DNA of 64,000 bases from Candidatus Yanofskybacteria bacterium RIFCSPHIGHO2_01_FULL_41_26 (GCA_001794055.1 MGJB01000006.1:90168-154167), one strand, 5' to 3'; shown: positions 8,801 to 53,706, counted from the stretch's first letter. Notes: generated by a model from the sequence alone, not told the origin. Made by a program: numbers and translations.

Positions 8801-9964
8801 TCAATTTATTAACACTCTAATAGTTTCTTCAAACATTTTTTCCGAACTGAAATGCTCTGCCGTTTTTTTTCCTTCTTTCTTGAATTCTTCTCGTAATTCC
8901 AGGTCTTGCCAAAGAGATCTAATGGCCTCAATGAGATTAAACTCATCCTGATATTTAACCATAAAGCCGTTTTCTCCCTGTCTGACAATTTCTTTGTTTC
9001 CTCCCACAGCTGTCGTAATAACAGGCACACCGGCTGTCATAGCTTCCAGTATTTGATGCGAAAAACCTTCATAACCGCTATTGAGAACAAACGTGTCCGC
9101 CGCCGCCAGATAAGTTGCCAGCTCTTCCTGCGATTTTCTACCGACCAGATAAACCTTTCTTTCCAAACCAAGATTTTTGACCATTGATTCCAATATTTTT
9201 TTGTCAGACCCATCACCAACTATAACCAAACGGAAAAGTTGGCTTATATCCGAAAGGCGGGGCATGATCTTAATCAACATGCGAAACCCTTTCCAAGGCA
9301 CCAAACGCCCTGCGGATAATAAAATATCTCCATAAATGCCTACTTTTTTCTTAGCTTCTTCTTGACCGATGTCCGCGCTCTTAAAAGCAACCCCATTGTA
9401 GATGGTTGTAATTTTATCACCCGAAACGCCCCAGCCCCGGACAATTCCGGCCAGATACTTAGAAGGAACAATAATCTCATCGGCACTTTTACAAGCTCGA
9501 ACCTGAACTTTATGCAAAAAGCCTATCCAGCCGGTTTTTTTTGCTTTTTGAAAATCATCTATAAGCAGGTCTGTTTTATTTTTTTCCACTGCCACTTGCC
9601 AGGCATAATCACCGGCTATTCTAAGATAAAACTTCTTTTTAAAAAATCTTGCTCCAATCAAAGATGGAATTGCTCCGCTTAAAGTGCTCAACGAATATAC
9701 GATGTCGCTGTTTTTGCAGGTAAAGAAAACTTTCAAACCAAATGAGGCATGTTTAAAAAACCAAAAATTTTTCTTCCAAACACGTTTCACTTTAAACTGA
9801 TAATTTTTATCTTGCTCATGTTTTCTGACTGATGAGTATGTAATAACTTTAACTTTATAATCTTTTGACAATCTTTGAGCCAAAATTCTGACATACGAAG
9901 CCGGTCCGCCTATATCAGGAGGAAAGATACCTGTCACAATCAAGATGTTTTTTACTTTTTTCAT
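8801..9964 (-). CDS. glycosyltransferase family 1 (GT4)
   Basis: YEGFSHQILEAMTAGVPVITTAVGGNKEIVRQGENGFMV motif. Confidence 0.85.
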   Translation of the reverse strand: MKKVKNILIVTGIFPPDIGGPASYVRILAQRLSKDYKVKVITYSSVRKHEQDKNYQFKVKRVWKKNFWFFKHASFGLKVFFTCKNSDIVYSLSTLSGAIPSLIGARFFKKKFYLRIAGDYAWQVAVEKNKTDLLIDDFQKAKKTGWIGFLHKVQVRACKSADEIIVPSKYLAGIVRGWGVSGDKITTIYNGVAFKSADIGQEEAKKKVGIYGDILLSAGRLVPWKGFRMLIKIMPRLSDISQLFRLVIVGDGSDKKILESMVKNLGLERKVYLVGRKSQEELATYLAAADTFVLNSGYEGFSHQILEAMTAGVPVITTAVGGNKEIVRQGENGFMVKYQDEFNLIEAIRSLWQDLELREEFKKEGKKTAEHFSSEKMFEETIRVLIN

Positions 9965-10728
9965 TTGATAAACAAATTAAATCTAATTATATGCCAGATT
10001 GCCGCCAATCCATCTTTCCAATTTATCTTTTTACCGTCTTGATAAGTCCTGCCGCTATACGAAATTGGCACTTCAATAACTTTAAAATGTAACTTTCCGA
10101 TCCAAGCAGTTAATTCGGGATCAATACCAAATCTTTTGGATTTAAGATGGGGGTAGATTTGGTTTATTGAGTCCTTGGAAAAAACTTTATAGCAAGTGTA
10201 CATATCGGTTAGTTTAACTCCGCTTAAAATATTGGACATCCAGTTTAATGCCTGGCTGAACAGATAGCCACTTTTGTAAATAATTTTGTTTTTCTGTTCT
10301 GGTTTCATAAAACGCGAGCCATAGACAACATCGGCCTTGTTTTCTATTATGGGTGTTATCAGATTAGGGTATTCTTGCGGATTGTACTCAAGATCGGCAT
10401 CTTGAATTAAAATAATATCCCCCGCTGCCTCCTCGAACCCCCTTTTTGTAGCCGCACCTTTACCCATATTCTTATCTAAAAAAACGACATTATACTCCAC
10501 CTGTGGATAACCGACTTGCGAAGTCGGTATGTGGATAAGTTGATTTAGTATCTCTCTAGAGCCATCGGTTGATCCGTCATCAACTAAAATAATTTCTTTC
10601 TTGAGAGGCAAACTAACTGCCTCAACAGCATTGATTAATTTTCGCAAAGTTCTTTCTTCATTATAAACCGGGATAATGATGCTCAATTTTTTACAATCAA
10701 ATTCGTTCATAAATTTTAGCAAATTCAT
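9961..10728 (-). CDS. glycosyltransferase family 2 (dolichyl-phosphate hexose transferase-like)
   Basis: LSIIIPVYNEE...VDDGSTDGS...IQDADLEYNP GT-A DXD signature. Contains a degenerate in-frame REP copy at 10500-10540 encoding HIPTSQVGYPQV. Confidence 0.8.
   Translation of the reverse strand: MNLLKFMNEFDCKKLSIIIPVYNEERTLRKLINAVEAVSLPLKKEIILVDDGSTDGSREILNQLIHIPTSQVGYPQVEYNVVFLDKNMGKGAATKRGFEEAAGDIILIQDADLEYNPQEYPNLITPIIENKADVVYGSRFMKPEQKNKIIYKSGYLFSQALNWMSNILSGVKLTDMYTCYKVFSKDSINQIYPHLKSKRFGIDPELTAWIGKLHFKVIEVPISYSGRTYQDGKKINWKDGLAAIWHIIRFNLFIK
10500..10540. repeat. degenerate REP palindrome copy inside the GT2 CDS
   Basis: cctgtggataaccgacttgcgaagtcggtatgtggataag. The left arm and the stem ccgactt/aagtcgg are identical to the 39-bp REP at 26530, 37799 and 38548. 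The right arm is decayed. Confidence 0.6.
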
Positions 10729-24928: not shown

Positions 24929-26948
24929 TGAAATATTTACTTAAAAAATCTTTTGCCTGCGTATTGTTTTTATCCAATCTCACAGCTTCTTTGAAAAAGG
25001 CCTGGGCGTTTTCAAGCCGGCTTAAGTTCATATAAACCACTCCCAAAATAAAATAATATTGACTCTCTTTCAAGCCTAAATCAATCGCCATTTTTATATT
25101 TTCCGCCCCCAATTGCTGATTTTGTTTATCCGAGTAAGAAACGTGAATAAATCCTTTGTGGAGATAAGGATATGGATTTTTGGGATCAATTTTTATAACT
25201 TCATCGGCAAAATAAGCCGATGCTTCCAGCCAATCAATTTTAAACAAAACGCGTGACAAAATAAGATTTAGGTCGGCCTTGTTTTTATTTGAGTTTTTTA
25301 TATTAGCAGATATTTTATCTATGGCATTTTTATCAATAATGGAAAATTTAGAAATAACCCCGGTGTTTTTACTATTATTCTTAAGCAGAATGATTGCATC
25401 TTCGTTAATATAAACAATTTTCCAGTCCAGGTTTTTGGCAATATTTCTTAAAAAATTATCGGCCCAAGGCGTAACATCATTATATCCAAAAAATATGAAG
25501 TTGATGCCATATTTCCCTGAAAATTCAAGCCACTTTTTCTTATCCTCTTGCATCGGCTTATATGTCTCGCTAAAAAACTCAACCGAATATGCTTCTGGCC
25601 TGTTGTCAACAAAAACTTTCTCTTGGGGGTACAGCTGCCATATCAAATATCCTCCAATATCAAAATTATTAAACATTGGTCCTTTGATATTGTTTTGTTT
25701 GACAAAATCAACAGCTCTTTCCAGTCCATTCGGAACAGAAAAACCGGATACCCTGGAAACTCCCATATACCTGTAATATGTATTATTTGCCACAAAAAAA
25801 ATAAGCAAAATAATCAACGCGGAAAACAGAACTTTAAAAAAACTGCTCAATCTTTTAACTTGAGGTTTAACTTCAAGTTTATAGAGATTAAACCTCTGTA
25901 GAACATCTGCCAGTAGGATCGCCAATATCGGGAAAGACGCAAGCGCGTACAACGGCAAATTGCGTAACATCCTGAATCCAGCATACACAAAAAATGCCAT
26001 AGTAAGTATTTCAAAGACCCTTTGTTTCGATTTTTTTGCGGTCAGTATCAAAGAAATAACTAAAAGTACCACCGAAAGTTTAAAAATAAAAACCGGCAAA
26101 AGAAAACCTCTAAGGTTGGCCAGAAAAGAAAGGGTTTGATTCTCAACTATGTTGTATCCGTACTCGTTCAGCACTTTAAAGGGCAAAAGTGCACCTTGAA
26201 TTCCGTTCGGATTTATAAGTGTTGCCAAGCTGGTTAGTGATCCAATCAACACTATTCTGATAAGGTCCGACCTTTTAGAAACAAGCCGGTCTATGAGAAA
26301 TGCTAACAACAGAAATGGTCCGATAAAAAAATAAATGTGCAAATTTACCCAAAACAATTCCAAAATCGGCAAAAACCAGAGAAAAAAATAATTTTTTTCA
26401 TATTTTGCCTTTAATATAGCAAACAAGAAAAATGACAAAATGACGAAACTGAATATCTCCGGTCGGACTTCCGTTCGCTGGATAAATATGAACATTGAGA
26501 GAAGGAAAGATACTAAAAGAGACCAGAAACCTGTGGATAACCGACTTCGCAAGTCGGTTATCCACAGGTGTTTTATAGTAAAAAATAGTAACAAAAACGC
26601 AATCAGTACCAAGGCGGTTTTAACAAGAGTTAATCCGATAAATCCAAAGTAACTGAAAATACCAAAAAATATTACCTCGCTTAACCAGTGATGGTTGATA
26701 AAAGGGAAATCCGGCTCGGTAAAAGAAAATAAATTTGTCTTTGGAACCTCTTTTGTCTGCCAAATAATCTCGCCAACCTTAAGATGCCGACCGATATCTT
26801 GGCCGATAGTGTCAAAGTTGTGAATCAAAAAACTCCCCAAAAGTACAAAAATGAGAACAAATAAATAGTTTTTCTTAAGGAAGTACAACAATGGTTTTAC
26901 CATCGCATTGTTTTTCAAAAAGTTTGACATAGCCCCCTTCAGTAACAA
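24921..26948 (-). CDS. polytopic membrane protein with C-terminal TPR repeats (third paralog-like member of the array)
   Basis: Multi-TM N-terminal region. C-terminal TPR-like repeats (YFILGVVYMNLSRLENAQAFFKEAVRLDKNN). Contains an in-frame intact 39-bp REP (26530-26568) encoding HLWITDLRSRLST. Confidence 0.55.
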   Translation of the reverse strand: MLLKGAMSNFLKNNAMVKPLLYFLKKNYLFVLIFVLLGSFLIHNFDTIGQDIGRHLKVGEIIWQTKEVPKTNLFSFTEPDFPFINHHWLSEVIFFGIFSYFGFIGLTLVKTALVLIAFLLLFFTIKHLWITDLRSRLSTGFWSLLVSFLLSMFIFIQRTEVRPEIFSFVILSFFLFAILKAKYEKNYFFLWFLPILELFWVNLHIYFFIGPFLLLAFLIDRLVSKRSDLIRIVLIGSLTSLATLINPNGIQGALLPFKVLNEYGYNIVENQTLSFLANLRGFLLPVFIFKLSVVLLVISLILTAKKSKQRVFEILTMAFFVYAGFRMLRNLPLYALASFPILAILLADVLQRFNLYKLEVKPQVKRLSSFFKVLFSALIILLIFFVANNTYYRYMGVSRVSGFSVPNGLERAVDFVKQNNIKGPMFNNFDIGGYLIWQLYPQEKVFVDNRPEAYSVEFFSETYKPMQEDKKKWLEFSGKYGINFIFFGYNDVTPWADNFLRNIAKNLDWKIVYINEDAIILLKNNSKNTGVISKFSIIDKNAIDKISANIKNSNKNKADLNLILSRVLFKIDWLEASAYFADEVIKIDPKNPYPYLHKGFIHVSYSDKQNQQLGAENIKMAIDLGLKESQYYFILGVVYMNLSRLENAQAFFKEAVRLDKNNTQAKDFLSKYFNE
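26530..26568. repeat. REP palindrome (39 bp, perfect) inserted in-frame in a CDS
   Basis: cctgtggataaccgacttcgcaagtcggttatccacagg. Same sequence as the RAYT-flanking copies. Confidence 0.85.
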
Positions 26949-33160: not shown

Positions 33161-36100
33161 TTATTTGATACTCATTACCTTGCTGCCATACCCCCAAATA
33201 ACCCTATTTTCACTTAAAACCGGGGATATAACCGAGCTTACTCCCGTTGAAATGTGCCATCTCTCATTGCCGTCCTTATCAACGCCATAAACATCTCCCG
33301 ACTGGGTAGAGAAATAGGCACCGCCGTCTTTGTCTACTGCTATCTGTTGGTTTATTTTACCTTCGGCCTGGAATGACCAACTAACCGTAAGGTCAGATTT
33401 ATTAAGCGAGAAAAGTTTTGAACCGGAAGCAGGATTTGACCAGCTGTAATCTAAACCGACAAGAAGATTGGTCGGGGTAATTGAAACCATTGTTGCCCCC
33501 GAACCATTGCTGGCCGGTTCAATAACAGTCGTATTCAAAACAGAACCGTCAGGTGGAATGACGAACATTCTAAACCCGAAAGAAGAACCCCCATCATAAC
33601 CGATAGCCGAATAAGTCTTGCCTGTTGATTTGTCATGTGACGGATTCGACTGCATACTGCCATTGGCGCCGGTATAAGCCAAATCCCAAATTTTTGAGCC
33701 ATCAGACAAATATTTTGTAAAAAATTGATTACCGCTTATCCGTCTTGCCACAACACTATCGCCATTTTCAAGAACAATCGGAACAAAACCACTCAGGCCA
33801 GGATTACTGGCTTGGGTCTTTGTTGAGCCGCCTGTATTTAACACGACAAGCTTGTCGTTGCCGCTTGAATAGGTAAAATATGGTTCACCTTTTTCGGATA
33901 CAGTAAAAGCTTTGATCGTACTTGCATCATCATAATCCCATTTCTTGGTTCCGTCGGAATTAAGAGCCGTAAAAGCCAAAACTCCGCCAGCTCCGATACG
34001 GCCAAAATACACCACACCATCAGATAAGATTGCCGGGGTGCCAATACTGACATTGGTGGCGTATTCCCATTTTTGTACGCCATTTTTATCAAGTTTTATT
34101 AATTTTCCGGAACCGTTGGCCGAGCCGAAATAAATACCTCCGTCAGCTGAAACAACCGGCTGACCTACAGTATTTCCGGCTCCGGCATCAAATTCCCAGC
34201 TTATTGTTGCCCCAACACCCGGCCCCGCCAAACTAGCCGCAAAAGACGTGTGATATTGGTCTTTACCGAGCATAGACCAAGCCCCGTCGTCTATCGCGGA
34301 TGGGAAACTCACCTCGGCTATATTAGAAATATCTGAACACTTATCCACAGTTTCCCCATTACCGACTTCGCAAGTCGGTATGTTGATAACTTTTGTTTTC
34401 AGGGCAAAATAAAGTGTCTGGCCATAGTCATGGGCAATATCGGGAGTTACGATTTGCGATTCTCCCTCATTTCCGACGCTAGGCAAACTAGAGCTGGCTA
34501 CTTTTATTGCTAAATCCCAACTGGCGGAAGAAGGGAAACCGGTGAGCGAATATCGCAAATCGTAACTCAAACTGGCCGGACTGTAACCGCCTGGGTCGGG
34601 CGCCGACCATGAAATGGTAAGCGGTGAGTTGATGGTGGCCAATAAGTTGGTAACGGCTGATGGAGCTTGAGTTATAACATCAGCGCTATTCTGGGATTTA
34701 GGAGTTGATGTGGCGGTAATCCATCCGCCATCCATCCGTTGGGCAGTTTTTTTAGTGTCATTGTTGCCAATAATTTCGTCATTGCCGTTTATTTTCCACG
34801 CATTTGAACCATCAACTTGGTCAATTACAGTTCCGGAAATGTCTTTCAAAACTAAATTTTCTCCCGTATTGCCTAAAGCGCCGGTGTATATTTGGTCGGC
34901 ATCAATATCAGGCAACGTTTGATCATCGGTCCTTTCTAAGACATAAAAGCCAAACGGACTTATATTGCCAATCAGTGTTATGTCTGGCGTACCGTCTTTT
35001 GACTTAAGATTCCAATTGTTAAGATTTATGGTTTTGTTGGTGATGTTACGAAGTTCTATCCACTCATCGTTCGATAATGACGCTGAGGTTCCCATCCAAG
35101 CAATTTCGTTTAGGACAATGTCACCAAGATTGGCAGTGTCACCATCGGGTTCTGGTGACGGGATGGGTGACGGTGACGGCGATTGTGACGGAGTGGGAGT
35201 AGGAGTTGCTTGCGGTGAGCTTGTCGAATCCGGTGTCGAAGATGACCCGCCTCCTCCGCCGCCATATGAAACAATAACCTGAACCGCTGTGCTGTTTTTG
35301 GCTTTAGGCGTTCCGTTTATCAACCCGCCGGTTGCATCTTTATTTGTTGATGTCCCGGAAAAACTTTTCCAATTTGAGGCGCTATTACCGGCTTTCATCG
35401 AATCTATTCTCTCCATTGAATTCTTTGATGTTGAGTCACCGAAATACCATGCTTCACCCGTGCCACCAACCACATCTACCACAATGCCAATGCTATCAAA
35501 CAGTCTGATCATTTCGCCTGCATTGTTAAGGCCTCCTTGGCCAAAACCTGCAGCCAAATCAGCTGTTATATCGCTTACGGTATTATCATCTGTCCTCTCA
35601 ATTAAAAAATAGGAATTCGCTTGAATAATTGTCCCTTCCGAGAAAATAATATCAGGGGAATCATCGCTTGAAACCAACCGCCAACTGGATATGTCTATTG
35701 GGTTGTTTTCGGTGTTATAAAGCTCAATCCATTCATCTGTTGCAGAGGCATCCGTCCCCGCCCAGGCAATCTCGTTTATGACCACTGTGCCGAATTTCTT
35801 TGCTGTGGATAATTTTGGGATAGGAGATGGGGTTGGGGTAGTTGACAGCTTCGGTGTCGGTGCTGGTGTTTTTGATGGTGACAGAATAGGTGACACAAGA
35901 GGTGACACTATTGTGACACTGGTGACAGGTGTCTTTGTCACCAGTGGTGACGGTGACACTACTTGATTTGTCACCTTCGGTGTTGGTGTCACCATGTTGT
36001 CACCATCATTTGAGTTATCCACAATGTCATTATCGGTGCTAATTCCTATTAACCCCAGCAATCTTGCAAACCAGTTTTTCTCTAGCGGTTTATTGGCATA

Positions 36101-37075
36101 TTCTTGTTTTGCTTTCTCCGCTTCTGTTAAAAACAAGTTCAACGCCCCAGAGCCGTTAAGAACTACCTCTCTTGATAATCGGTCCCAATAGCCATCGAGG
36201 ATATCCTCACTCGATATTGTTAGTTCACCAGTTTTAATGATATTTTTAACTAATACATAATTACCACTCTTGTCTTTTTTATACCCTACTAAATCCTCCT
36301 CTCCTTTTTGATTTTTCTTATAAATCCAAAAATCTATTGTTGGGTTTGCATAGTTACTATCATTAATCGTATCTTTACTAAAAAAATTCCCATTTGAATA
36401 CTTGGCTATTTTATCAAAATATTCGCCCAGATTAGCAAGAATCACGGGCTTCAATCCTTCTTTTTTAAATTTAGAAGCAACATTAAAGTTATCAGGACTC
36501 CATTTCGCCATTTCATGTTCATACGGACTGCCGAATGTTCCTACCGGCGGATGGGGATCATTTCGAGTGTGGTCGGGAACTCCCATATCTTCCAATAAGT
36601 GCAGAAGGTGACCAAATGCAAGCATGGCTCTTTGTCTGTCTCCTTGAGCATAATCATTCATTGCTCGTTCATAAGAAAAGTCATCTGGACTTTTAATTAC
36701 CCCCGCTGATTGAGCAATACTATTGTTGGACATGGCAAGATTTGATTGAGCGCCAGAACTCATCGCCCACTGTTTGGATGTAGGGAATCCGGCCATACCA
36801 ATATTGTGAACTGGGTCATAGAAATGATTCATCGGCCTCATACCTTGGTCTTCATCCATGGAACCCTGAATTATCCAAGTTTTATCTTGATTATTTAACT
36901 TTTGAGAAAAGTTAAGATTATAAAAATCAACAATCTCGTCGGTTAACGCCGGGTGAGTATGCGGCTGGTCGTAAGCCGATGCTTTGGTAATGAAAAAGGC
37001 GCCAATAAGCGCCCCTCCTACTATTAAGTTTTTGATTCGTTTATGCCTCATAACTGGCTGATTTTCCATATCCAT
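33161..37075 (-). CDS. multidomain secreted protein: Zn-dependent phospholipase-C-like domain + 2 lamin-tail (LTD) domains + PQQ-like beta-propeller
   Basis: Signal/TM. MNHFYDP and HLLHLLEDMGVPDH motifs (Zn_dep_PLPC-like). Two INEIAW.GT.AS..DEWIEL.N LTD motifs separated by Pro/Thr/Ser linkers. C-terminal GG.YFG...G.L..LD.NG..KW repeats (PQQ/BamB-like). Degenerate REP inside at 34351-34400. Confidence 0.65.
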   Translation of the reverse strand: MDMENQPVMRHKRIKNLIVGGALIGAFFITKASAYDQPHTHPALTDEIVDFYNLNFSQKLNNQDKTWIIQGSMDEDQGMRPMNHFYDPVHNIGMAGFPTSKQWAMSSGAQSNLAMSNNSIAQSAGVIKSPDDFSYERAMNDYAQGDRQRAMLAFGHLLHLLEDMGVPDHTRNDPHPPVGTFGSPYEHEMAKWSPDNFNVASKFKKEGLKPVILANLGEYFDKIAKYSNGNFFSKDTINDSNYANPTIDFWIYKKNQKGEEDLVGYKKDKSGNYVLVKNIIKTGELTISSEDILDGYWDRLSREVVLNGSGALNLFLTEAEKAKQEYANKPLEKNWFARLLGLIGISTDNDIVDNSNDGDNMVTPTPKVTNQVVSPSPLVTKTPVTSVTIVSPLVSPILSPSKTPAPTPKLSTTPTPSPIPKLSTAKKFGTVVINEIAWAGTDASATDEWIELYNTENNPIDISSWRLVSSDDSPDIIFSEGTIIQANSYFLIERTDDNTVSDITADLAAGFGQGGLNNAGEMIRLFDSIGIVVDVVGGTGEAWYFGDSTSKNSMERIDSMKAGNSASNWKSFSGTSTNKDATGGLINGTPKAKNSTAVQVIVSYGGGGGGSSSTPDSTSSPQATPTPTPSQSPSPSPIPSPEPDGDTANLGDIVLNEIAWMGTSASLSNDEWIELRNITNKTINLNNWNLKSKDGTPDITLIGNISPFGFYVLERTDDQTLPDIDADQIYTGALGNTGENLVLKDISGTVIDQVDGSNAWKINGNDEIIGNNDTKKTAQRMDGGWITATSTPKSQNSADVITQAPSAVTNLLATINSPLTISWSAPDPGGYSPASLSYDLRYSLTGFPSSASWDLAIKVASSSLPSVGNEGESQIVTPDIAHDYGQTLYFALKTKVINIPTCEVGNGETVDKCSDISNIAEVSFPSAIDDGAWSMLGKDQYHTSFAASLAGPGVGATISWEFDAGAGNTVGQPVVSADGGIYFGSANGSGKLIKLDKNGVQKWEYATNVSIGTPAILSDGVVYFGRIGAGGVLAFTALNSDGTKKWDYDDASTIKAFTVSEKGEPYFTYSSGNDKLVVLNTGGSTKTQASNPGLSGFVPIVLENGDSVVARRISGNQFFTKYLSDGSKIWDLAYTGANGSMQSNPSHDKSTGKTYSAIGYDGGSSFGFRMFVIPPDGSVLNTTVIEPASNGSGATMVSITPTNLLVGLDYSWSNPASGSKLFSLNKSDLTVSWSFQAEGKINQQIAVDKDGGAYFSTQSGDVYGVDKDGNERWHISTGVSSVISPVLSENRVIWGYGSKVMSIK
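34351..34400. repeat. degenerate REP palindrome copy inside a CDS
   Basis: ttatccacag...accgacttcgcaagtcggtatgttgataac. The stem and loop are identical to the REP family. Encodes INIPTCEVGNG in-frame. Confidence 0.55.
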
Positions 37076-37614
37076 ATATTAGTCATCGTATTCTTAGAAA
37101 AAATAGTTTCTGCATTAAATCTACCTGCTGGAAGTGTGATTTTTTGGGTTTTTCCACCCGAAACAGGAAGTTCCGTTGTTGAAGGAGTTTCTCTTGTGTA
37201 TGAATATGTATATCTCACTTCCTCATCGTTACGATTTTGAGGAGTCCAAAATTTTCTGTTTTGTTCTAGTTCACCAATGAGATTTACCAATAAATTTTGA
37301 GATTGATATTCTTGAAATGTTTTTAGCCAGTTATCTTGTTTGCCCACCACAAAATACTTACTCGCCAAAGTCGTATCTCCCTTGCGCAAGGCGTCCAAGA
37401 ACATATCATAAGTTTCCTCTGGGGTTTTACCGCCATATTTGTCTTCACGGTAGGGTTTTTCCCATTGGGCCTGGAGTCGTTTGGCTTCCCAATTTGCCCG
37501 AAGATTATTGACATACGGCATGCCATTAAGGACAAACCACAAGACACCACCAGCCAGCAAAACCAAAAAGAGCACCCCGTACCAGCTCTTTAAGTTAATC
37601 CACAATTTATTCAT
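37048..37614 (-). CDS. hypothetical membrane-anchored protein
   Basis: N-terminal TM (WYGVLFLVLLAGGVLWFVL). Overlaps the 5' end of the 1304-aa gene by 28 nt (operon). Confidence 0.4.
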   Translation of the reverse strand: MNKLWINLKSWYGVLFLVLLAGGVLWFVLNGMPYVNNLRANWEAKRLQAQWEKPYREDKYGGKTPEETYDMFLDALRKGDTTLASKYFVVGKQDNWLKTFQEYQSQNLLVNLIGELEQNRKFWTPQNRNDEEVRYTYSYTRETPSTTELPVSGGKTQKITLPAGRFNAETIFSKNTMTNIWIWKISQL

Positions 37615-37798
37615 TAGTAAATCCTTTTGAACTGCCGCGAAATTAGAAGGTCCGCTAAATTAAGGAGGGATTTATAATCTATCGCACCCAATTCGCGCAG
37701 CAGATCAAAAAAATCTACTCTTCAAAAAATTTACTCTTTTTTCTTACACTTTTATTTATCAAAACAACTTCTCACTGTCAACCCAACCAATCCACCAC

Positions 37799-37837
37799 CC
37801 TGTGGATAACCGACTTGCGAAGTCGGTTATCCACAGG
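37799..37837. repeat. REP palindrome (39 bp, perfect), left flank of RAYT
   Basis: cctgtggataaccgacttgcgaagtcggttatccacagg. The loop is inverted relative to the right-flank copy. Confidence 0.9.
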
Positions 37838-37861
37838 TACACTTTGGCAATCCAACAAACT

Positions 37862-38536
37862 ATGGCAACTGAACAAAATTTTTACCACACGCTAAATAGG
37901 GGTGTCGAAAAACGTAATATATTCCTAGATAAGCAGGACCATTTTCGTTTTATTCACAATTTATATGAACTCAATAATGAAGATAGGGTTGATACCACCT
38001 TTCATTCTTTTAAAGAAGATCCGAATCTTACCGACTTCGCAAATCGGAAACAAAGAAAAATATTGGTAGACATTCTTGCGTTTTGTTTAATGCCAAATCA
38101 TTATCACCTGCTTCTTTCACCAAAAATAGAGGGTGGGGTTCCTAAGTTTATGAATAAGATAAACATTGGCTACGCAAAATATTTTAATAAAAAATATAAG
38201 AGAGTTGGAGCGTTGTTTCAAGGAAGATATAAAAAAATATTAATAGCAGATAATACTCACTTTCTCCACCTTCCTTTTTATATCCATTTCAATCCGCTTG
38301 ATTTAAAATATCCTGAATGGAGAGAAAATAGAATATTAAATGCTGAAAAAGCTTTAGGGTTTTTAAAATCCTATCGTTGGAGCAGCCATTTAGACTATTT
38401 GGGTGTTAAAAATTTTCCGTCGATTATAAATAATGGCTTACTTACAGAAATTTTTGACGGAAGTAAGGGTTACGAAAAACTGATTAATAATTACCTAAAA
38501 GATATTCAAATAGATCCAGAGGTTGCGTTAGAATAA
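37862..38536 (+). CDS. REP-associated tyrosine transposase (RAYT; IS200/IS605-like Y1 HUH transposase)
   Basis: HUH motif LMPNHYHLL. C-terminal ALFQGRYKKILIADNTHFLHLPFYIHFNP matches the RAYT W/FQxR(Y)...IRDE..L.....YIH.NP block with the catalytic Tyr. The ORF-track start (37802) lies inside the REP palindrome, so the start is placed at MATEQNF. Confidence 0.8.
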   Translation: MATEQNFYHTLNRGVEKRNIFLDKQDHFRFIHNLYELNNEDRVDTTFHSFKEDPNLTDFANRKQRKILVDILAFCLMPNHYHLLLSPKIEGGVPKFMNKINIGYAKYFNKKYKRVGALFQGRYKKILIADNTHFLHLPFYIHFNPLDLKYPEWRENRILNAEKALGFLKSYRWSSHLDYLGVKNFPSIINNGLLTEIFDGSKGYEKLINNYLKDIQIDPEVALE

Positions 38537-38547
38537 AGAATGGTAAC

Positions 38548-38586
38548 CCTGTGGATAACCGACTTCGCAAGTCGGTTATCCACAGG
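38548..38586. repeat. REP palindrome (39 bp, perfect), right flank of RAYT
   Basis: cctgtggataaccgacttcgcaagtcggttatccacagg. Confidence 0.9.
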
Positions 38587-38590
38587 TGGT

Positions 38591-39310
38591 TTATTTTTGT
38601 TTGCGGACAAGAATATTGGCGAGGTGAAGTGAATCAAAAGTTCCAGCATCAACCCAATATTTTTTGGCCTTGACATAATCCATTGCGCCTTCCCTGATAT
38701 AAAAATTATTCACATCAGTTATCTCGTATTCTCCTCGGTTGGATAGTTTAAGGTTTTTGATAACATCAAACACCCTATTGTCGTAAAGATAAAATCCCGT
38801 TACAGCCCAGTTGGTCGCAGGTTTTTTGGGTTTTTCGACAATATTTTTAATCGTTCCGTCTTTACGAAAAGAGGCCACGCCAAATCTTTGCGGATCAGAA
38901 ACTTTTTTTAAAACTATCAGGCCTCCCCTTTCTTTTTTAGAAAATTTCTTTACAGCGACGGAAAGATTGTCTCCGAAAATATTATCGCCTAAAACAAGGG
39001 CGACCGAATTGTTTTCGGCGAAAGACCTGGCTAAACCTAAACCATGAGCGATTCCCAATGGATCAACCTGAATTGTATAATATAAGTTGACACCCAGTTC
39101 ACTGCCGGAACCAAGAAGTTTCACATATTGGTCTGTATGTTCCTGCCCGCAAACTATCAATATATCCTTAATGCCGGCATTTTTAAGGGTAAGAATGGGA
39201 TAGTGGATTATCGTTTTATTTCCCACAGGCAAAAAGTGCTTTCCGACAACTTTTGTAACCGGCCAAAGGCGCGTGCCTTTACCGCCCGCCAAAATAACAC
39301 CTTTGATCAT
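38591..39310 (-). CDS. sugar-phosphate nucleotidyltransferase (glucose-1-phosphate thymidylyltransferase-like, short form)
   Basis: MIKGVILAGGKGTRLWPVTKVVGKHFLPVGNKTIIHYPILTL matches the RmlA/G1P nucleotidyltransferase N-terminal signature. Confidence 0.75.
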   Translation of the reverse strand: MIKGVILAGGKGTRLWPVTKVVGKHFLPVGNKTIIHYPILTLKNAGIKDILIVCGQEHTDQYVKLLGSGSELGVNLYYTIQVDPLGIAHGLGLARSFAENNSVALVLGDNIFGDNLSVAVKKFSKKERGGLIVLKKVSDPQRFGVASFRKDGTIKNIVEKPKKPATNWAVTGFYLYDNRVFDVIKNLKLSNRGEYEITDVNNFYIREGAMDYVKAKKYWVDAGTFDSLHLANILVRKQK

Positions 39311-39325
39311 GTACATTAATTACCA

Positions 39326-39922
39326 CTAAACGATCGAATAGTAAACGGCGTTGTCCTTGGCCCATTTACGGATCAAGCCTTCGGCAGCTAATTCTTTTAA
39401 GTTCCTTTTTACAGTCCTCTCGGATAATATATTGAATTCTTCAATAATTTCTTTGGTGCGAGAATTGGGAGATCGTTTGATAAAATTAAAGATCCTATCT
39501 TTGTTTGAACTCTCCTTTAAATTTTTAAAGTGAGAATTTTTAGGAACAGAAGCAGGTGGCTTATTCTCTTTCAGTTTCGGGGTTAATTGGATTAGCTGAC
39601 CAGACGACTTGATCAGATCGAGTTTGAAACTTAGAAGATTTTTGCGGGTGTAAAGAAGGGGAGTGATTAATGTGGATTTAGAATGTTCCAGATAATCTAG
39701 AAGTTCTAATAAATCATCAGTTGCATTTCTGAATTCAAGAAAATTAATATTATGCGACACTACATCCTCTCCTCCTAAAGTAAGCAATTTAATGTAGCCG
39801 GCAACAAATTCGGATATTTTATCGTATAATTTCTGAGCTAGAAACTTGTCTTTCAATCCAGAAAAAAGTTTCACCAAAAATATTATAGAATTTATGAAAT
39901 TTTTTAAACCATCTTCTTCCAT
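39326..39922 (-). CDS. hypothetical protein with C-terminal winged-helix DNA-binding-like domain
   Basis: C-terminal SERTVKRNLKELAAEGLIRKWAKDNAVYYSI resembles a wHTH. Confidence 0.35.
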   Translation of the reverse strand: MEEDGLKNFINSIIFLVKLFSGLKDKFLAQKLYDKISEFVAGYIKLLTLGGEDVVSHNINFLEFRNATDDLLELLDYLEHSKSTLITPLLYTRKNLLSFKLDLIKSSGQLIQLTPKLKENKPPASVPKNSHFKNLKESSNKDRIFNFIKRSPNSRTKEIIEEFNILSERTVKRNLKELAAEGLIRKWAKDNAVYYSIV

Positions 39923-39940
39923 GGCTCGGATACTAACACA

Positions 39941-40954
39941 TCAAAAAAAATTATTGAAGAGTCCTTTCGCTTTATCCCAAAATTCCGGATGGCCGTTTTG
40001 TTTCATCCAATACCACCATTCGGCGCCCCAAAGATAAAAAGTATCAAACCCGGTCTTTGAAGAGAAGCTTATCATCTCACCAAACTTGTCTATTCCCATT
40101 CTCTGTAACTGGATATCAATGGGCGTATCGATTATTGGCTGAAGCAACCATGGTTCGGCAGAAAGCTCGATAACCATTGATGGTTTTGTTCCATAAATCA
40201 AACGAGTTAAAGAGTGTTTAATTCTGAAAAAAGCTGGCGTTATCGGATACCGAAGAGGACCGATGGCATTTCTCCACCACACATAAAGATATATGCTAGT
40301 CCCAAACACATCGCCTTTTCTATATGCTTGATACCAAGTTCCAAATTCACCACTATCAGTAAGTATCACTGGATGAACGGGGTCCAACCGATGAACCAAA
40401 GCAATTTCTTCATCCAAAATTTCTGAAGCTTTCTCATTATGCTGTTCGCAAGAAGACCGGCTGAAAAATCTTAGAAAAATCTCGTTTTCAACTTGCCAAT
40501 ACCGCAAAGCTGGCGAATTTTTATACCTATTTACAACCTTTTCAATATATTTTACGAGCTCTTGTTTGTGTTGATCATGAGACAAAGGAACAACCCAATC
40601 TGGAGTATGGCACTCCGGCCAGCCGGGAAGCCGATGGCCAACAGCAATTATTACCGAAGCATTCCTCTTTTCAGCCTCTTGCACCTGAAAATCAAGTTCA
40701 GAAAAATTGTAAATACCCTCTTTCGGTTCAGTAAGAGGCCAATGGGCAACGAGTCGCAGATTTCTTACTTTTAAATCATCGAGAACAGCCAAATATGTTT
40801 TCTTCCAGTCAAGTTTTAACTCATTAGAATGAAAAACACTAAAAGAGACCCCGTATACAAAATTTTTTTCAGGAGACATGTCCCATGATAAAATCCAAAG
40901 AAAACTTAAAGCAGCAATAAAAACCCAAAGAATTATATTTTTTTTGTTGATCAT
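39941..40954 (-). CDS. membrane-anchored glycoside hydrolase (clan GH-A-like)
   Basis: N-terminal TM. YWQVENEIF (NEP-type catalytic acid motif) and aromatic-rich TIM-barrel-like composition. Family not resolved. Confidence 0.4.
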   Translation of the reverse strand: MINKKNIILWVFIAALSFLWILSWDMSPEKNFVYGVSFSVFHSNELKLDWKKTYLAVLDDLKVRNLRLVAHWPLTEPKEGIYNFSELDFQVQEAEKRNASVIIAVGHRLPGWPECHTPDWVVPLSHDQHKQELVKYIEKVVNRYKNSPALRYWQVENEIFLRFFSRSSCEQHNEKASEILDEEIALVHRLDPVHPVILTDSGEFGTWYQAYRKGDVFGTSIYLYVWWRNAIGPLRYPITPAFFRIKHSLTRLIYGTKPSMVIELSAEPWLLQPIIDTPIDIQLQRMGIDKFGEMISFSSKTGFDTFYLWGAEWWYWMKQNGHPEFWDKAKGLFNNFF

Positions 40955-41820
40955 CTGAATAACATCAAAAAACCAACGCCAATGAAAGATATTCCAAGAA
41001 GCTTTTTGATGAGTATTTTTCTGGTAATATTTTCGGCCACATCAGGAAATATCTTTCCGAAAATAAGGGCCAGAATAAATACAAAAGAAAACTGTACGCC
41101 CAAAAGAGCATTCACCAATGAAACATTGCCGAGTTGAATAGCGTAGTAAAGGGTCAAGAAACCAACCCCCGCGATAATCTTATTTAAAATAAACAGAAAA
41201 AGGGAGGACTGTGGAGCATTTTTCAAGGAATTTGAAATTTCCCCCCTTGCTCGCGGAAAAACAAGCATAAACAGAGACGAACCGACAAAACCTATCCGTG
41301 TCCAAAAAATACCATTAACAAAATCGGAATAATTAAACGTCCACTTGAGAAGAACCAACGAAAGGCCGAAAAATAAACCTGCCAAAATTGAATATCTGAA
41401 AATGTCCCGCCTGATCATGCCAAGAAACAAGATTCCTAAAACCAAAAACACAAAAGCCAATCCATTATTTGTTCCTAGTTTTTCTTTTAAAATAAAGACT
41501 GATAAAACATAAGTAAAAATCGCGCTTAAAGTAGCAACATTGATAGATGCCACCGACACATCGCTTAATTTTATAGATTTATAAAGAAAGAAAAGAGCAA
41601 TAAAAAAAGCTGTTCCCGATACGAACGAAATAAAAAAATATTGAACACCAAGCCAGGCCACTCCAAATGGAATTAAAACCACGGCAAGAATGCTCAAGAT
41701 AGAAACTCCGAATGCATAAGCAAACGGACGAGGGAGAGAAGAGGAGAGGAGATGCTTGTCGATTACGAAAGCAATTGCATTTACAAAATAAGCTGTTAAG
41801 GCGAGATAAATCCAAAGCAT
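40951..41820 (-). CDS. EamA/DMT-family transporter
   Basis: 10 predicted TM helices with two EamA-like halves. Confidence 0.65.
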   Translation of the reverse strand: MLWIYLALTAYFVNAIAFVIDKHLLSSSLPRPFAYAFGVSILSILAVVLIPFGVAWLGVQYFFISFVSGTAFFIALFFLYKSIKLSDVSVASINVATLSAIFTYVLSVFILKEKLGTNNGLAFVFLVLGILFLGMIRRDIFRYSILAGLFFGLSLVLLKWTFNYSDFVNGIFWTRIGFVGSSLFMLVFPRARGEISNSLKNAPQSSLFLFILNKIIAGVGFLTLYYAIQLGNVSLVNALLGVQFSFVFILALIFGKIFPDVAENITRKILIKKLLGISFIGVGFLMLFR

Positions 41821-41860: not shown

Positions 41861-42129
41861 GAGCTAACGCTATGGATATTTCTCAGTCGCGATACCGGCA
41901 AATTGCGAGTGGCACAAGAAGCAACAACGAAGGTGTACTCATTGTACTCCGAGGAGGAGCGACGCAGTGTCCACTCGCAATTTGCCTTATCCCTCCTGGT
42001 TCTAGCTATTTTGTCCTATCGCTGCGTTACTTCTCGTCGCTGTAGTACCAACTACAACTTCCTTGAAGTGCCTGGCGCTAAGACAAAATAGCTAAGAACG
42101 CGACTGAGAAATATCCATAGCATTAGCTC
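41861..42129. mobile_element. MITE-like element (269 bp) with 31-bp terminal inverted repeats and nested internal inverted repeats
   Basis: Left TIR gagctaacgctatggatatttctcagtcgcg (41861-41891). Right TIR is its reverse complement with 1 mismatch (42099-42129). Internal ggcaaattgcgagtgg/ccactcgcaatttgcc pair. The right TIR encodes the last 10 codons (NAMDISQSRS*) of the GH1 gene. Confidence 0.55.
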
Positions 42130-43315
42130 TACATATTTTAGCATATTCAAAAGCCGAAGGACGAATTTTTCTGGCAAATGTCGCATAATCAATCTCAACT
42201 AATCCGAAACGCGGTCTAAAACCATATGCCCACTCGAAATTATCCAAAAGCGACCAGTATAAGTACCCTCGGATATCAACGCCGTCATGAATGGCCTGCC
42301 AAACCCATTTTAGATGTTCTTTTATAAATTTTCCACGCCGTTCGTCCTTGCTATCAGCAACTCCATTCTCGGTGATAAAAATAGGTTTTTTATACTTTTT
42401 AAGCTCCATGAGACGATGGTAAATACCTTTGGGATAGACGTCCCAATTCATTTCTGAGACAAAATCGACCCGCCGCAGTTCACGGGTGCCCGGCAAGCGC
42501 ACGGTCGTATAGTAATTTAAACCTATAAAATCCTGGTAGGGAAGAGTCTTATTCCAAAAGTATAAATTTACGAACTGATCCAAAAACTTTACTATTCCCT
42601 TGAACACCGGATGACTCATAATGTGTAAATTATTTTCAACTCCCCCAACGAGTGGTTCTATATTGTGCGACGTTGAATCATACAATCCTTGGTTTTTCGG
42701 TGAAACATCATAAACCCTCTTTATTTCCTGATAGGCGAGTGTATGCGACCGAACTATATTATTCCGAACCTTGATTGCTTTGAAAATATTATGTTTTTGC
42801 GGCGGCCATTGTCCTTTTAAATATGAGCCTCCGGCGTATATCCAAGGCTCATTAAAAGTTATCCACAGCCCTACTCTATCTTTTAAATTATCCACAACAT
42901 ACTTTACATATCTTGTAAATATTGTCGGACTATCAATGTTTAGGAATCCTCCTTTTTCGGCGAACCAGACGGGGTTAGTGAAATGCCAGAGAGTTATCAT
43001 CGGCTCAATCCCCCTCTCCTTCAAGGCCTTGACGACATTGACATAGTGATGCATAGCTTCATGGTCAAATATCCCCTCCTTCGGTTCTATGCGGGACCAC
43101 TCAATAGAGAAGCGGTGAATATTTTGATTTAAACTCTTAGCAATATCAAAATCTTCCTCGTAACGGTTGTAACTATCGCAGGCCTTTCCTGAACGAAATT
43201 CGGGCGGACGAGATTTCTCCCATTCGGACCAGTCATTGTAATTGTCTCCTTCTATCTGGTGGGCCGATGTGGTGCTCCCCCACTTGAATCCTTCAGGGAA
43301 TTGCATGTAAGACAT
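42092..43315 (-). CDS. GH1 beta-glucosidase/beta-galactosidase
   Basis: TFNEPW (acid/base) and ITENGVA (nucleophile) family-1 glycoside hydrolase motifs. Roughly 400 aa. Confidence 0.85.
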   Translation of the reverse strand: MSYMQFPEGFKWGSTTSAHQIEGDNYNDWSEWEKSRPPEFRSGKACDSYNRYEEDFDIAKSLNQNIHRFSIEWSRIEPKEGIFDHEAMHHYVNVVKALKERGIEPMITLWHFTNPVWFAEKGGFLNIDSPTIFTRYVKYVVDNLKDRVGLWITFNEPWIYAGGSYLKGQWPPQKHNIFKAIKVRNNIVRSHTLAYQEIKRVYDVSPKNQGLYDSTSHNIEPLVGGVENNLHIMSHPVFKGIVKFLDQFVNLYFWNKTLPYQDFIGLNYYTTVRLPGTRELRRVDFVSEMNWDVYPKGIYHRLMELKKYKKPIFITENGVADSKDERRGKFIKEHLKWVWQAIHDGVDIRGYLYWSLLDNFEWAYGFRPRFGLVEIDYATFARKIRPSAFEYAKICRANAMDISQSRS

Positions 43316-53656: not shown

Positions 53657-53706
53657 AATACAATGGGGGTCTTTGTATAAATGTATACAAAGACCCCCAT
53701 TGTATT
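53657..53706 (-). terminator. 23-bp perfect hairpin (likely terminator of 53801..54181)
   Basis: aatacaatgggggtctttgtata-aatg-tatacaaagacccccattgtatt. A T-rich run follows on the minus strand. Also lies in the hppA upstream region. Confidence 0.45.

What the first reader, a model, noticed from the sequence alone, without database searches (positions are those of the whole stretch)
37799..38586. REPIN-RAYT unit: an IS200-like tyrosine transposase flanked by inverted copies of a perfect 39-bp palindrome
The ORF at 37862-38536 carries the HUH motif (LMPNHYHLL) and the C-terminal block ALFQGRYKKILIADNTHFLHLPFYIHFNP, the hallmark of REP-associated tyrosine transposases. It is bracketed by two copies of cctgtggataaccgactt-NNNNNNN-aagtcggttatccacagg at 37799-37837 and 38548-38586. 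Their loops, ttgcgaa and ttcgcaa, are reverse complements, so the two copies are inverted, as in classic REP doublets. At least three more copies of the palindrome occur in this 64-kb window, so an active REP/REPIN population accompanies its cognate RAYT. RAYT/REP systems are described mainly in Proteobacteria. One in what looks like a reduced, CPR-like genome would be unusual.
Basis: partly seen in the sequence, partly recalled or inferred. Interest (0 to 1): 0.7.

Follow-up and report, generated by a model that had tools for sequence, protein, structure and literature searches.

The report
RAYT gene with REP palindromes
A domesticated IS200-type (RAYT) nuclease gene in a tiny-genome Candidatus Yanofskybacteria (CPR) bacterium is bracketed by 39-bp hairpin repeats that are also scattered through the genome, some in-frame inside genes; this is a known kind of system that I could not find described for this group of bacteria.

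Summary
A 224-aa Y1/HUH protein (37862-38536) is bracketed by two perfect 39-bp palindromes (37799-37837 and 38548-38586). One more perfect copy (26530-26568) and degenerate copies (10500, 34341, 38028) lie in the window.

The REP/RAYT reading is supported.
- The protein has invariant HUH (NHYH) and the class-2 Tyr motif YIHFNP, and no TnpB partner.
- It is single-copy in the window and sits in conserved synteny in about 30 related contigs. dN/dS is 0.11.
- In 35 of 41 related loci the upstream and downstream hairpins share the same core, while 31 different cores occur across lineages. The cross-locus control is 7%.
- A related genome carries six dispersed copies.

Extra features:
- Several copies lie in-frame inside genes (RecR, UvrC, a membrane/TPR protein whose orthologs lack the 13 aa).
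- An in-frame copy inside the RAYT gene itself co-varies with the flanks.
- The arms contain a perfect DnaA-box 9-mer in this clade only.

REPIN doublets were not seen.

Verdict: a new member of the REPtron kind, in CPR. Moderate interest.

The parts
37799..37837 (.). Upstream REP: perfect 39-bp palindrome (18-bp stems, loop GCG), 24 nt before the ATG of the RAYT gene
   Evidence: DNA fold -20.7 kcal/mol, z -9.3. An equivalent upstream hairpin is present in most related loci.
37862..38536 (+). RAYT-type Y1/HUH nuclease gene (224 aa). HUH = H80/H82 (NHYH); catalytic Tyr motif Y140-IHF-NP; WSS173-175 in the tail
   Evidence: Pfam Y1_Tnp E 6e-10. NCBIfam REP_Tyr_transpos 42.7 bits. Invariant residues in 35 homologs. 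Foldseek matches ISDra2/IS608 TnpA and E. coli RAYT 4ER8. dN/dS 0.11 against L009.
38028..38047 (+). Degenerate in-frame REP relic inside the RAYT ORF (codons ~56-62, before the HUH motif). It no longer forms a significant hairpin here
   Evidence: family D5 (95% to the reference copy). In at least 16 related loci the hairpin at the same codon position is intact and shares its stem with that locus's flanking REPs. Fold z -0.3 in the window.
38548..38586 (.). Downstream REP: the same palindrome with loop CGC, between the convergent RAYT and NTP-transferase genes. It is followed by a T-rich tail (terminator-like)
   Evidence: It is the only terminator-like site in 37000-39400. The orthologous copy is at L001 173-211.
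26530..26568 (.). Solo perfect REP inserted in-frame in the membrane/TPR protein gene (24921-26930, minus strand). It encodes ...HLWITDLRSRLSTG...
   Evidence: Sixteen of the 19 more distant orthologs aligned (60-79% identical) lack these residues at that loop, i.e. an empty site.
10500..10538 (.). Degenerate REP in-frame in a GT2 glycosyltransferase gene (9961-10728, minus strand). The inner hairpin is intact. One outer arm is replaced by a flipped TGTGGATAA, which removes the TAA stop that the canonical arm would give in this frame
   Evidence: (D1, D16). Pfam Glycos_transf_2. Fold -9.1 kcal/mol, z -3.6.
34341..34392 (.). Degenerate 'type B' REP (TTATCCACAG-N10-ACCGACTTCGCAAGTCGGT-ATGTTGATAAC) in-frame in the 1304-aa LTD/PQQ protein gene (33161-37075, minus strand)
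   Evidence: (D5, D16). Orthologous copies in L013, L015 and L018 carry each genome's own stem variant.

Best explanation
This is a REPtron. A single-copy, vertically inherited, domesticated IS200-like Y1/HUH nuclease (RAYT / TnpA-REP type) is bracketed by its cognate REP hairpins in a Candidatus Yanofskybacteria (CPR) chromosome.

By analogy with E. coli TnpA-REP and IS608/ISDra2 TnpA, the protein would work as follows. It binds the REP folded as a hairpin on single-stranded DNA and reads a conserved 'foot' next to the stem (CCTGTGGA..., containing GTGG). It cleaves with Tyr140, with the metal held by His80/His82, and rejoins the strands. Over time this seeds REP copies around the genome without target duplications.

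The unit is 39 nt, which is 13 codons, and it is stop-free in two of three frames on either strand. Copies that land in tolerant loops of proteins therefore survive as in-frame 13-aa insertions.

Shown here: the anatomy, the catalytic motifs, purifying selection, synteny, co-variation of REP with gene, dispersal, and one empty site. Inferred: the nuclease/strand-transfer activity, and that the RAYT is what spreads or maintains the REPs.
For: Protein
- Pfam Y1_Tnp E 6e-10. The best NCBIfam model is REP_Tyr_transpos.
- H80, H82, Y140, N144 and P145 are invariant in 35 homologs. The YIHFNP motif fits the class-2 'Y---NP' signature that separates TnpA-REP from IS200 'Y---Q' (PMC6006769).
- The predicted fold matches ISDra2/IS608 TnpA and RAYT 4ER8 (Foldseek E 9e-6 to 3e-4).

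Not an insertion sequence
- One copy in the 64 kb window.
- The same neighbours (188-aa gene and 1304-aa LTD/PQQ gene upstream; NTP-transferase, 198-aa gene and GH gene downstream) occur in about 30 loci whose RAYT is 55-92% identical.
- dN/dS is 0.11 at dS 0.37.
- No TnpB and no viral-contig relatives.

REP-gene link
- Of 73 loci with both flanks available, 63 have a perfect hairpin on at least one side.
- In 35 of the 41 with hairpins on both sides, the two share the same 7-nt core. The cross-locus control is 7.1%, and there are 31 distinct cores.
- The window and L009 have identical 36 stem positions despite dS 0.37 in the gene.

Dispersal
- 3 perfect copies in the window against 0 expected.
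- 6 copies on 6 contigs of MAG H41-bin108_1.
- 13 copies in 20 kb of L015.

Insertion
- Sixteen of the 19 more distant orthologs of the membrane/TPR protein lack the 13 aa.
- Copies sit inside the RecR Zn-finger loop, UvrC and a Wzy_C-family protein in the related MAG.
Against: - The NCBIfam equivalog cut-off is not reached (42.7 against 80 bits).
- A profile search of PDB sequences did not retrieve 4ER8.
- The fold search ranks IS200/IS605 transposases above 4ER8, and the model is only medium quality (pLDDT 65; the Tyr region is below 50).
- The copy number seen is modest, and a genome-wide count could not be made.
- No REPIN doublets were seen.
- The 5' foot is not the canonical GT[AG]G placed directly at the stem base.
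- The upstream/downstream loop inversion is not conserved: L009, L012, L016 and L019 have GCG on both sides.
- No biochemical evidence exists for any member of this CPR family.
- By key motifs (NHYH, FQ, YIH[FL]NP, SS, ~224 aa) it looks most like subclass 2.1, for which no REPs were found previously.
Confidence: 0.8

Rival explanations
1. It is an autonomous IS200-like insertion sequence (tnpA only). The two palindromes are its subterminal left- and right-end hairpins, and the solo palindromes are remnants or MITE derivatives.
For: The fold search ranks IS200/IS605 TnpA structures first. Hairpin-gene-hairpin is also the anatomy of IS200/IS608. Some distant loci have two tandem gene copies (L079/L080, L086, L087).
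Against: - The chromosomal position is the same in about 30 lineages down to 55% protein identity.
- There is one copy in the window.
- The motif is Y---NP, not Y---Q.
- The protein is 224 aa with a conserved tail, against ~150 aa for IS200 TnpA.
- dN/dS is 0.11 over deep divergence.
- No viral-contig relatives were found.
- Solo hairpins outnumber gene copies in every long locus.
Confidence: 0.07
2. The palindromes are primarily host cis-elements: bidirectional intrinsic terminators, mRNA stabilisers, or binding sites for a host protein such as DnaA. The Y1 protein is merely regulated by them, or uses them for a host function other than spreading them.
For: The downstream copy fits a terminator pattern and sits between convergent genes. 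The arms contain the perfect DnaA-box 9-mer TTATCCACA, with 14 occurrences against 0.49 expected. REPs in other bacteria do have such secondary roles (PMC3733652).
Against: - Half or more of the non-flanking copies lie inside ORFs in-frame, where a terminator would be harmful.
- Hairpin sequences differ between lineages yet track the adjacent Y1 gene. This is expected for enzyme-substrate co-evolution, not for a universal host site.
- The DnaA-box match is confined to the closest clade.
Confidence: 0.1
3. It is a chance or assembly artefact: palindromes created by assembler errors at contig joins.
For: REPs coincide with contig ends or odd joins in the fragmented MAG (L001 starts next to one; the L002 TGT gene is broken at one).
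Against: The same arrangement is found in independent assemblies from ENA, JGI and NCBI. Expected matches in shuffles are 0. The copies lie inside long intact ORFs.
Confidence: 0.01

Closest known systems
E. coli TnpA-REP / RAYT (YafM, PDB 4ER8) and its REPtron; TnpA-Y1 subclass 2.2, Bertels Group 2
   Same: Y1/HUH fold (Foldseek E 2.6e-4). Y---NP tyrosine motif. Single-copy gene flanked by its cognate REP hairpins, which are also dispersed. No TnpB. Housekeeping-like conservation.
   Different: - Only ~12% identity in the structural alignment, and below the NCBIfam equivalog cut-off.
- HUH is NHYH rather than DHLH, and 'FQ' replaces 'WE' (table).
- An extra ~80-aa tail.
- The REPs are perfect, bulge-less, double-footed 39-bp palindromes rather than imperfect stems with a 5' GTAG.
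- The host is CPR.
TnpA-Y1 subclass 2.1 / TIRYT (Bertels Group 1)
   Same: The key-motif pattern in the PMC6006769 table matches best: NH[YF]H, FQ, Y[IV]HLNP (here YIHFNP; some homologs have YIHLNP), an 'SS' motif in the proximal tail (WSS here), and a median length of 238 aa.
   Different: Subclass 2.1 genes were reported to have no REPs, only terminal inverted repeats with GGGG[AT][CG]A[CG]. Many carry HTH or Bac_DnaA_C tails. Here REPs are clearly present, and no HTH or DnaA_C domain is detected in 35 of 35 members. Membership was not tested with the authors' profiles.
TnpA-Y1 subclass 2.4 (Bertels Group 4; Cyanobacteria, Bacteroidetes)
   Same: 'Double foot' long REPs. REP copies inserted in-frame inside the tnpA-REP gene itself. 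REPs inside other genes (PMC6006769).
   Different: The motifs differ (WQ, YIxNNP). [quoted passage not shown]
IS200/IS605 TnpA (IS608, ISDra2)
   Same: Best structural matches. Recognition of subterminal single-stranded DNA hairpins flanking the gene.
   Different: Those have the Y---Q motif, are ~130-150 aa, are multi-copy and mobile, and often have TnpB. None of these applies here.
Rickettsia palindromic elements (RPE) and intragenic GTAG/CGTC REPs (Di Nocera 2013, PMC3733652)
   Same: Small palindromic repeats inserted in-frame in functional genes, notably replication and repair genes (here RecR and UvrC in the related MAG).
   Different: RPEs were reported with a CGTC tag at one end, which is not seen here. 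From my own knowledge, not checked here, RPEs are also longer and have no known cognate transposase. No sequence comparison with RPEs was made. In this system a cognate RAYT is adjacent and co-varies with the repeats.

Membership tests
RAYT / TnpA-REP (class 2 TnpA-Y1) | Y1 HUH nuclease fold with HUH motif and catalytic Tyr | tested here: met
   Pfam Y1_Tnp 39.7 bits against cut-off 23. H80, H82 and Y140 are invariant. Foldseek matches TnpA/RAYT structures.
RAYT / TnpA-REP (class 2 TnpA-Y1) | Tyr motif Y-x3-N-P (against Y-x3-Q in IS200) | tested here: met
   YIHFNP, with Y140, H142, N144 and P145 invariant in 35 sequences. Definition from PMC6006769.
RAYT / TnpA-REP (class 2 TnpA-Y1) | Gene flanked on both sides by cognate REP hairpins (REPtron) | tested here: met
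   In 35 of 41 related loci the two flanks share the core, against a 7% control.
RAYT / TnpA-REP (class 2 TnpA-Y1) | The same REP dispersed in many copies through the genome | tested here: inconclusive
   One extra perfect copy and 2-3 degenerate copies in 64 kb. 6 copies in MAG H41-bin108_1. 13 copies in 20 kb in L015. The whole-genome count for the source genome was not obtainable.
RAYT / TnpA-REP (class 2 TnpA-Y1) | Single or low copy, vertical inheritance, housekeeping-like conservation | tested here: met
   One copy in the window. Conserved synteny in ~30 loci. dN/dS 0.11. The gene is as conserved as the NTP-transferase neighbour.
RAYT / TnpA-REP (class 2 TnpA-Y1) | Conserved 5' GT[AG]G guide at the foot of the hairpin | tested here: inconclusive
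   A conserved foot CCTGT[GT]GA[CT] containing GTGG/GTTG precedes the inner hairpin by 3-5 nt. It is on the gene-distal side of upstream copies in the 62-69% clade. It is not directly at the stem base, and it is base-paired in the double-foot form.
RAYT / TnpA-REP (class 2 TnpA-Y1) | Score above the curated NCBIfam equivalog cut-off (NF047646 REP_Tyr_transpos) | tested here: not met
   42.7 bits against a cut-off of 80. This is a divergent subfamily, not an equivalog of the curated RAYT set.
RAYT / TnpA-REP (class 2 TnpA-Y1) | Sequence-specific cleavage and strand transfer of single-stranded REP DNA | not testable with these tools
   Needs an in vitro CST assay as in PMC8266576.
REPIN (Bertels & Rainey) | Two REPs in inverted orientation separated by a short spacer, forming a larger hairpin that is the replicating unit | tested here: not met
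   All solo copies in the window and in L001-L006 are singlets. The only pair is the one 710 nt apart around the gene. Tandem clusters were seen only in L087.
IS200/IS605 insertion sequence | Multi-copy mobile unit, Y---Q motif, ~150-aa TnpA, frequent TnpB partner | tested here: not met
   as above.
TnpA-Y1 subclass 2.1.2 (DnaA_C-tailed) | C-terminal Bac_DnaA_C / HTH_23 / HTH_28 domain | tested here: not met
   No such Pfam hit in any of 35 members even at E <= 5, nor in 10 longer relatives.

The most novel reading that the evidence does not exclude
In this Yanofskybacteria clade the REP arms are perfect DnaA boxes: TGTGGATAA ... TTATCCACA, an inverted pair 17 bp apart. The 9-mer is kept intact when the inner stem changes between genomes (ACCGAC, AACGAC, ATCGAC). 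It also survives in 'flipped' variants and as isolated boxes near the RAYT gene. The most novel reading not excluded is that these REPs double as DnaA-binding sites. Dozens of copies in a ~1-Mb genome could titrate DnaA like datA, or could couple RAYT/REP activity to replication. This would be functionally analogous to the DnaA_C domain fused to related subclass-2.1 proteins, but supplied in trans by host DnaA.
Probability: 0.1. Interest if true: 0.8.

Novelty: new member of a known kind. Interest (0 to 1): 0.5.

Why it matters
RAYT/REP systems are the best example of a domesticated transposase with a co-evolving population of short repeats, and their benefit to the host is still unknown. PMC6006769 reported that tnpA-Y1 genes are associated with larger genomes. 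Here one sits, strongly conserved and syntenic, in streamlined CPR genomes.

Retention under dN/dS of about 0.1 in a minimal genome argues for a host-level function. It also gives a compact comparative system: 31 distinct hairpin cores tracking their genes, which could be used to read out the recognition code.

The many in-frame intragenic copies, including in RecR and UvrC, also matter practically. They create 13-aa insertions in conserved proteins, break assemblies and gene calls in CPR MAGs, and may be mistaken for lineage-specific protein features.

Tried and rejected
- The literal 18-N7-18 pattern gave 0 hits. The loop is 3 nt.
- A profile search of PDB sequences with the 35-sequence alignment gave only a spurious TPR-like hit, not 4ER8. 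Fold comparison was needed.
- Rfam at gathering threshold found only three tRNAs. The palindromes match no known RNA family.
- I looked for a DnaA_C or HTH tail that could explain the DnaA boxes. There was none in 35 of 35 members or in 10 longer relatives.
- No relatives were found in viral contigs.
- I tested whether the relic inside the window's RAYT gene still folds. It does not (z -0.3). Intact internal hairpins exist only in more distant lineages.
- I considered the DnaA box as a conserved feature of the whole family and rejected it. More distant REPs have TGT[GT]GAC-TAACGAC or unrelated AT-rich feet.
- I considered classic REPIN doublets. They were not observed.
- A genome-wide count for the source genome was not possible.

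Full report
**1. Observation**

The sequence at 37799-37837 reads CCTGTGGATAACCGACTT-GCG-AAGTCGGTTATCCACAGG. At 38548-38586 the same 18-bp arms enclose CGC. Between them an ORF with ATG at 37862 and stop at 38536 encodes 224 aa containing LMPNHYHLL and ALFQGRYKK...LPFYIHFNP.

With a 3-nt loop there are three perfect copies in the window, at 26530, 37799 and 38548, against none in 100 shuffles. Degenerate copies that keep the inner hairpin ACCGACTT-NNN-AAGTCGGT lie at 10500-10538 and 34341-34392. A 20-nt relic lies inside the ORF at 38028-38047.

As single-stranded DNA the perfect copies fold at about -21 kcal/mol, with z about -9 to -11. Apart from the loop the element is self-complementary, so 'inverted orientation' rests on three bases.

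**2. The protein**

- Pfam gives Y1_Tnp: E 6e-10, 39.7 bits, cut-off 23.
- The best NCBIfam model is REP_Tyr_transpos, but at 42.7 bits it is below the 80-bit equivalog cut-off.
- In an alignment of 35 homologs (59-92% identical to the window protein), H80 and H82 (NHYH) and Y140, H142, N144 and P145 (YIHFNP) are invariant. So is W173-S-S. The Tyr in GRYK is not invariant.
- Quentin et al. 2018 define IS200 transposases by Y---Q and all class-2 (TnpA-REP/RAYT-like) proteins by Y---NP (PMC6006769). This protein is therefore class 2.
- Its motif set (NHYH, FQ, YIH[FL]NP, SS, ~224 aa) fits their subclass 2.1 best. This inference comes from their table, not from their profiles.
- An AlphaFold model is of medium quality (pLDDT 65; the core is at 70-92; the Tyr region is below 50). 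It matches ISDra2 and IS608 TnpA (E 9e-6 and up) and the E. coli RAYT 4ER8 (E 2.6e-4).
- A sequence-profile search of the PDB did not reach these structures.
- No extra Pfam domain, in particular no Bac_DnaA_C or HTH, is detectable in any of the 35 members.

**3. Host and distribution**

The neighbouring membrane/TPR protein is 100% identical to a protein of Candidatus Yanofskybacteria bacterium RIFCSPLOWO2_01_FULL on a 262,580-bp contig. Named RAYT homologs are also from Yanofskybacteria and Patescibacteria. The CPR guess is right.

The family is large:
- 5,645 hits in the 90%-clustered database.
- 18,551 representatives at E <= 1e-3, of which 247 are at E <= 1e-30.
- 592 of the 599 JGI metagenome stretches examined encode a relative.
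- None in IMG/VR viral contigs.

**4. Domesticated gene, not an insertion sequence**

tblastn finds one copy in the window. In about 30 related loci the gene lies between the same neighbours: the 188-aa gene and the ~1300-aa LTD/PQQ protein upstream, and the NTP-transferase, a 198-aa protein and a glycoside hydrolase downstream. Across these loci RAYT identity falls from 92% to about 55%. The RAYT is as conserved as the best-conserved neighbour.

dN/dS against L009 is 0.11 at dS 0.37, and it is lower still against more distant orthologs. No TnpB-like gene is present (Pfam listing). A few distant loci have two tandem copies (L079/L080, L086, L087).

**5. The palindromes belong to the gene**

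Of the 80 metagenomic loci, 73 have both flanks available. Of these, 63 have a perfect hairpin (stem >= 8) within 150 nt on at least one side, and 41 have one on both sides. In 35 of those 41, the 7-nt core next to the loop is the same upstream and downstream. Cross-locus pairings match in only 7.1%, and there are 31 different cores.

Examples:
- ...GTGGATAACCGACTT... in the window and L009.
- ...GTGGATAAACGACTT... in L010 and L013.
- ...GTGGATAATCGACTT... in L016, L018 and L019.
- TAACGACACG... in L025-L029.
- TATTGATTT... in L083.

The window and L009 have identical stems at all 36 positions, although synonymous sites in the adjacent gene differ at 29%. The hairpins are therefore constrained or homogenised.

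In the 62-69% clade the upstream copy has a one-sided, gene-distal foot AACCTGTTGAC. Downstream copies often have a different foot, CACAGTTTT-N5. So there are REP subtypes, as in E. coli. In the window's clade the foot is present on both sides, which corresponds to the 'double foot' of Quentin et al.

**6. Dispersal and insertion**

One of these (L001) is the ortholog of the copy downstream of the RAYT, at a contig end. L015 has 13 copies in 20 kb.

Many copies are intragenic and in-frame:
- In the window: a membrane/TPR protein (26530), a GT2 glycosyltransferase (10500) and the LTD/PQQ protein (34341).
- In the MAG: the loop between the two CxxC pairs of RecR, UvrC, and a Wzy_C-family membrane protein. 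In addition, a TGT gene lacks profile positions ~95-221 and shifts frame exactly at the element.

For 26530, twenty homologs were aligned. One (P0271) is 100% identical and carries the same 13 residues. Sixteen of the other 19 (60-79% identical) have a short '...AK-KHA-xFWP...' loop without them. Three (P0272, P0274, P0276) carry unrelated longer inserts in that loop, and a fourth (P0291) carries a related insert just after its KYS.

The unit is 39 nt and has a stop (TAA) in only one of three frames on either strand. The copy at 10500 is read in that third frame, and there the offending arm is replaced by a flipped TGTGGATAA.

In-frame intragenic REPs, preferentially in replication and repair genes, have been described before for other bacteria and for Rickettsia RPEs (PMC3733652).

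**7. A REP inside the RAYT gene**

At codons ~52-62, before the HUH motif, at least 16 loci have an intact hairpin whose stem equals that of their own flanking REPs. Stems reach 22 bp in L073. In the window only a relic remains (38028-38047; it no longer folds). [quoted passage not shown]

Likewise, the intragenic copy in the LTD/PQQ protein is at an orthologous position in several genomes, and it carries each genome's own stem variant. This points to concerted evolution or repeated replacement.

**8. DnaA box**

The arms contain TGTGGATAA / TTATCCACA, the consensus DnaA box. The window has 14 of these 9-mers against 0.49 expected. Five are isolated, and all five lie within 5 kb of the RAYT gene.

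The 9-mer is invariant in the closest clade while the inner stem varies. More distant REPs do not have it, and it overlaps the conserved foot that a RAYT would be expected to read. I therefore treat DnaA binding as an unexcluded but unlikely reading (about 0.1).

It is notable that Quentin et al. found DnaA_C-like tails on related subclass-2.1 proteins whose flanking repeats do not resemble DnaA boxes.

**9. Mechanism and rivals**

The best explanation (0.8) is a REPtron. A RAYT-type nuclease recognises its REP as a single-stranded DNA hairpin plus foot, then cleaves and rejoins via Tyr140 and HUH. This spreads or maintains REPs, and in-frame survivors are left in genes. The activity is inferred by homology only.

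The flanking copies may also regulate the gene. The upstream hairpin is 24 nt before the ATG, and the downstream copy is terminator-like.

Rivals:
- An autonomous IS200-like insertion sequence (0.07). This is contradicted by synteny, copy number and motifs.
- Host cis-elements or DnaA sites unrelated to mobilisation (0.1). This is contradicted by the intragenic copies and the gene-specific co-variation.
- An artefact (0.01).

**10. Novelty**

Full-text searches found no paper that links RAYT/REPIN/REP with Patescibacteria or the candidate phyla radiation. All individual features have precedents: the REPtron, double-foot REPs, intragenic in-frame REPs, and a REP inside the gene.

I rate it a new member of a known kind. 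It is possibly a new subclass, because it combines 2.1-like protein motifs with 2.4-like REP behaviour. Interest is moderate (0.5).

Noticed in passing
window 41861-42129: A ~270-nt segment closed by a 31-bp inverted repeat, with two long internal hairpins. As RNA (minus strand) it folds at -149 kcal/mol, z = -14.2. There is no Rfam match at gathering threshold. It lies between ORF 40951-41820 and the 3' end of the GH1 gene (42092-43315) and overlaps the latter. It could be an unknown structured RNA or a nested palindromic mobile element.
   Followed up: partly
window 53657-53706: A perfect 23-bp-stem, 4-nt-loop palindrome (AATACAATGGGGGTCTTTGTATA...) in the intergenic space between two minus-strand ORFs. 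It is unrelated to the REP family (I13).
   Followed up: no
window 33118, 35804, 36015, 42859, 42888: Five isolated perfect DnaA-box 9-mers (TTATCCACA) not attached to a REP hairpin. All lie within ~5 kb of the RAYT gene, and two are 29 nt apart in direct orientation inside the GH1 gene. They could be decayed REP feet or genuine boxes.
   Followed up: partly
window 26530-26568 and orthologs P0272, P0274, P0276, P0291: The protein loop that holds the REP-encoded 13 aa in the window carries other, unrelated 25-30-aa insertions in several orthologs (e.g. IPLEVRPAPGAWSADDPSKRGVLPL). It is a hot-spot loop, possibly for other repeat families.
   Followed up: no
L002 2772-3442 (MAG H41-bin108_1, JBBUJJ010000083.1): The tRNA-guanine transglycosylase gene lacks Pfam profile positions ~95-221 and changes reading frame exactly at a REP copy. 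This is a REP-associated deletion or pseudogene, or a misassembly at the repeat.
   Followed up: partly
L013 6322, L015 1146, L018 5239; window 34361: The REP copy at an orthologous position inside the ~1300-aa LTD/PQQ protein carries each genome's own stem variant (ACCGAC, AACGAC, ACCGACATT, ATCGAC), although the host proteins are only ~50% identical. This suggests concerted evolution or replacement of intragenic REPs.
   Followed up: partly
L087 10001-13100 (549,707-bp contig Ga0315288_10000002); also L079/L080 and L086: Two tandem RAYT paralogs, each with its own set of flanking and internal hairpins and with clusters of tandem REPs between them.
   Followed up: no
P0086: A 148-aa fragment 100% identical to the window's RAYT is deposited under Candidatus Magasanikbacteria RIFCSPLOWO2_12_FULL on a 5,260-bp contig, whereas all other close relatives are Yanofskybacteria. 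This is probably a binning assignment issue.
   Followed up: no
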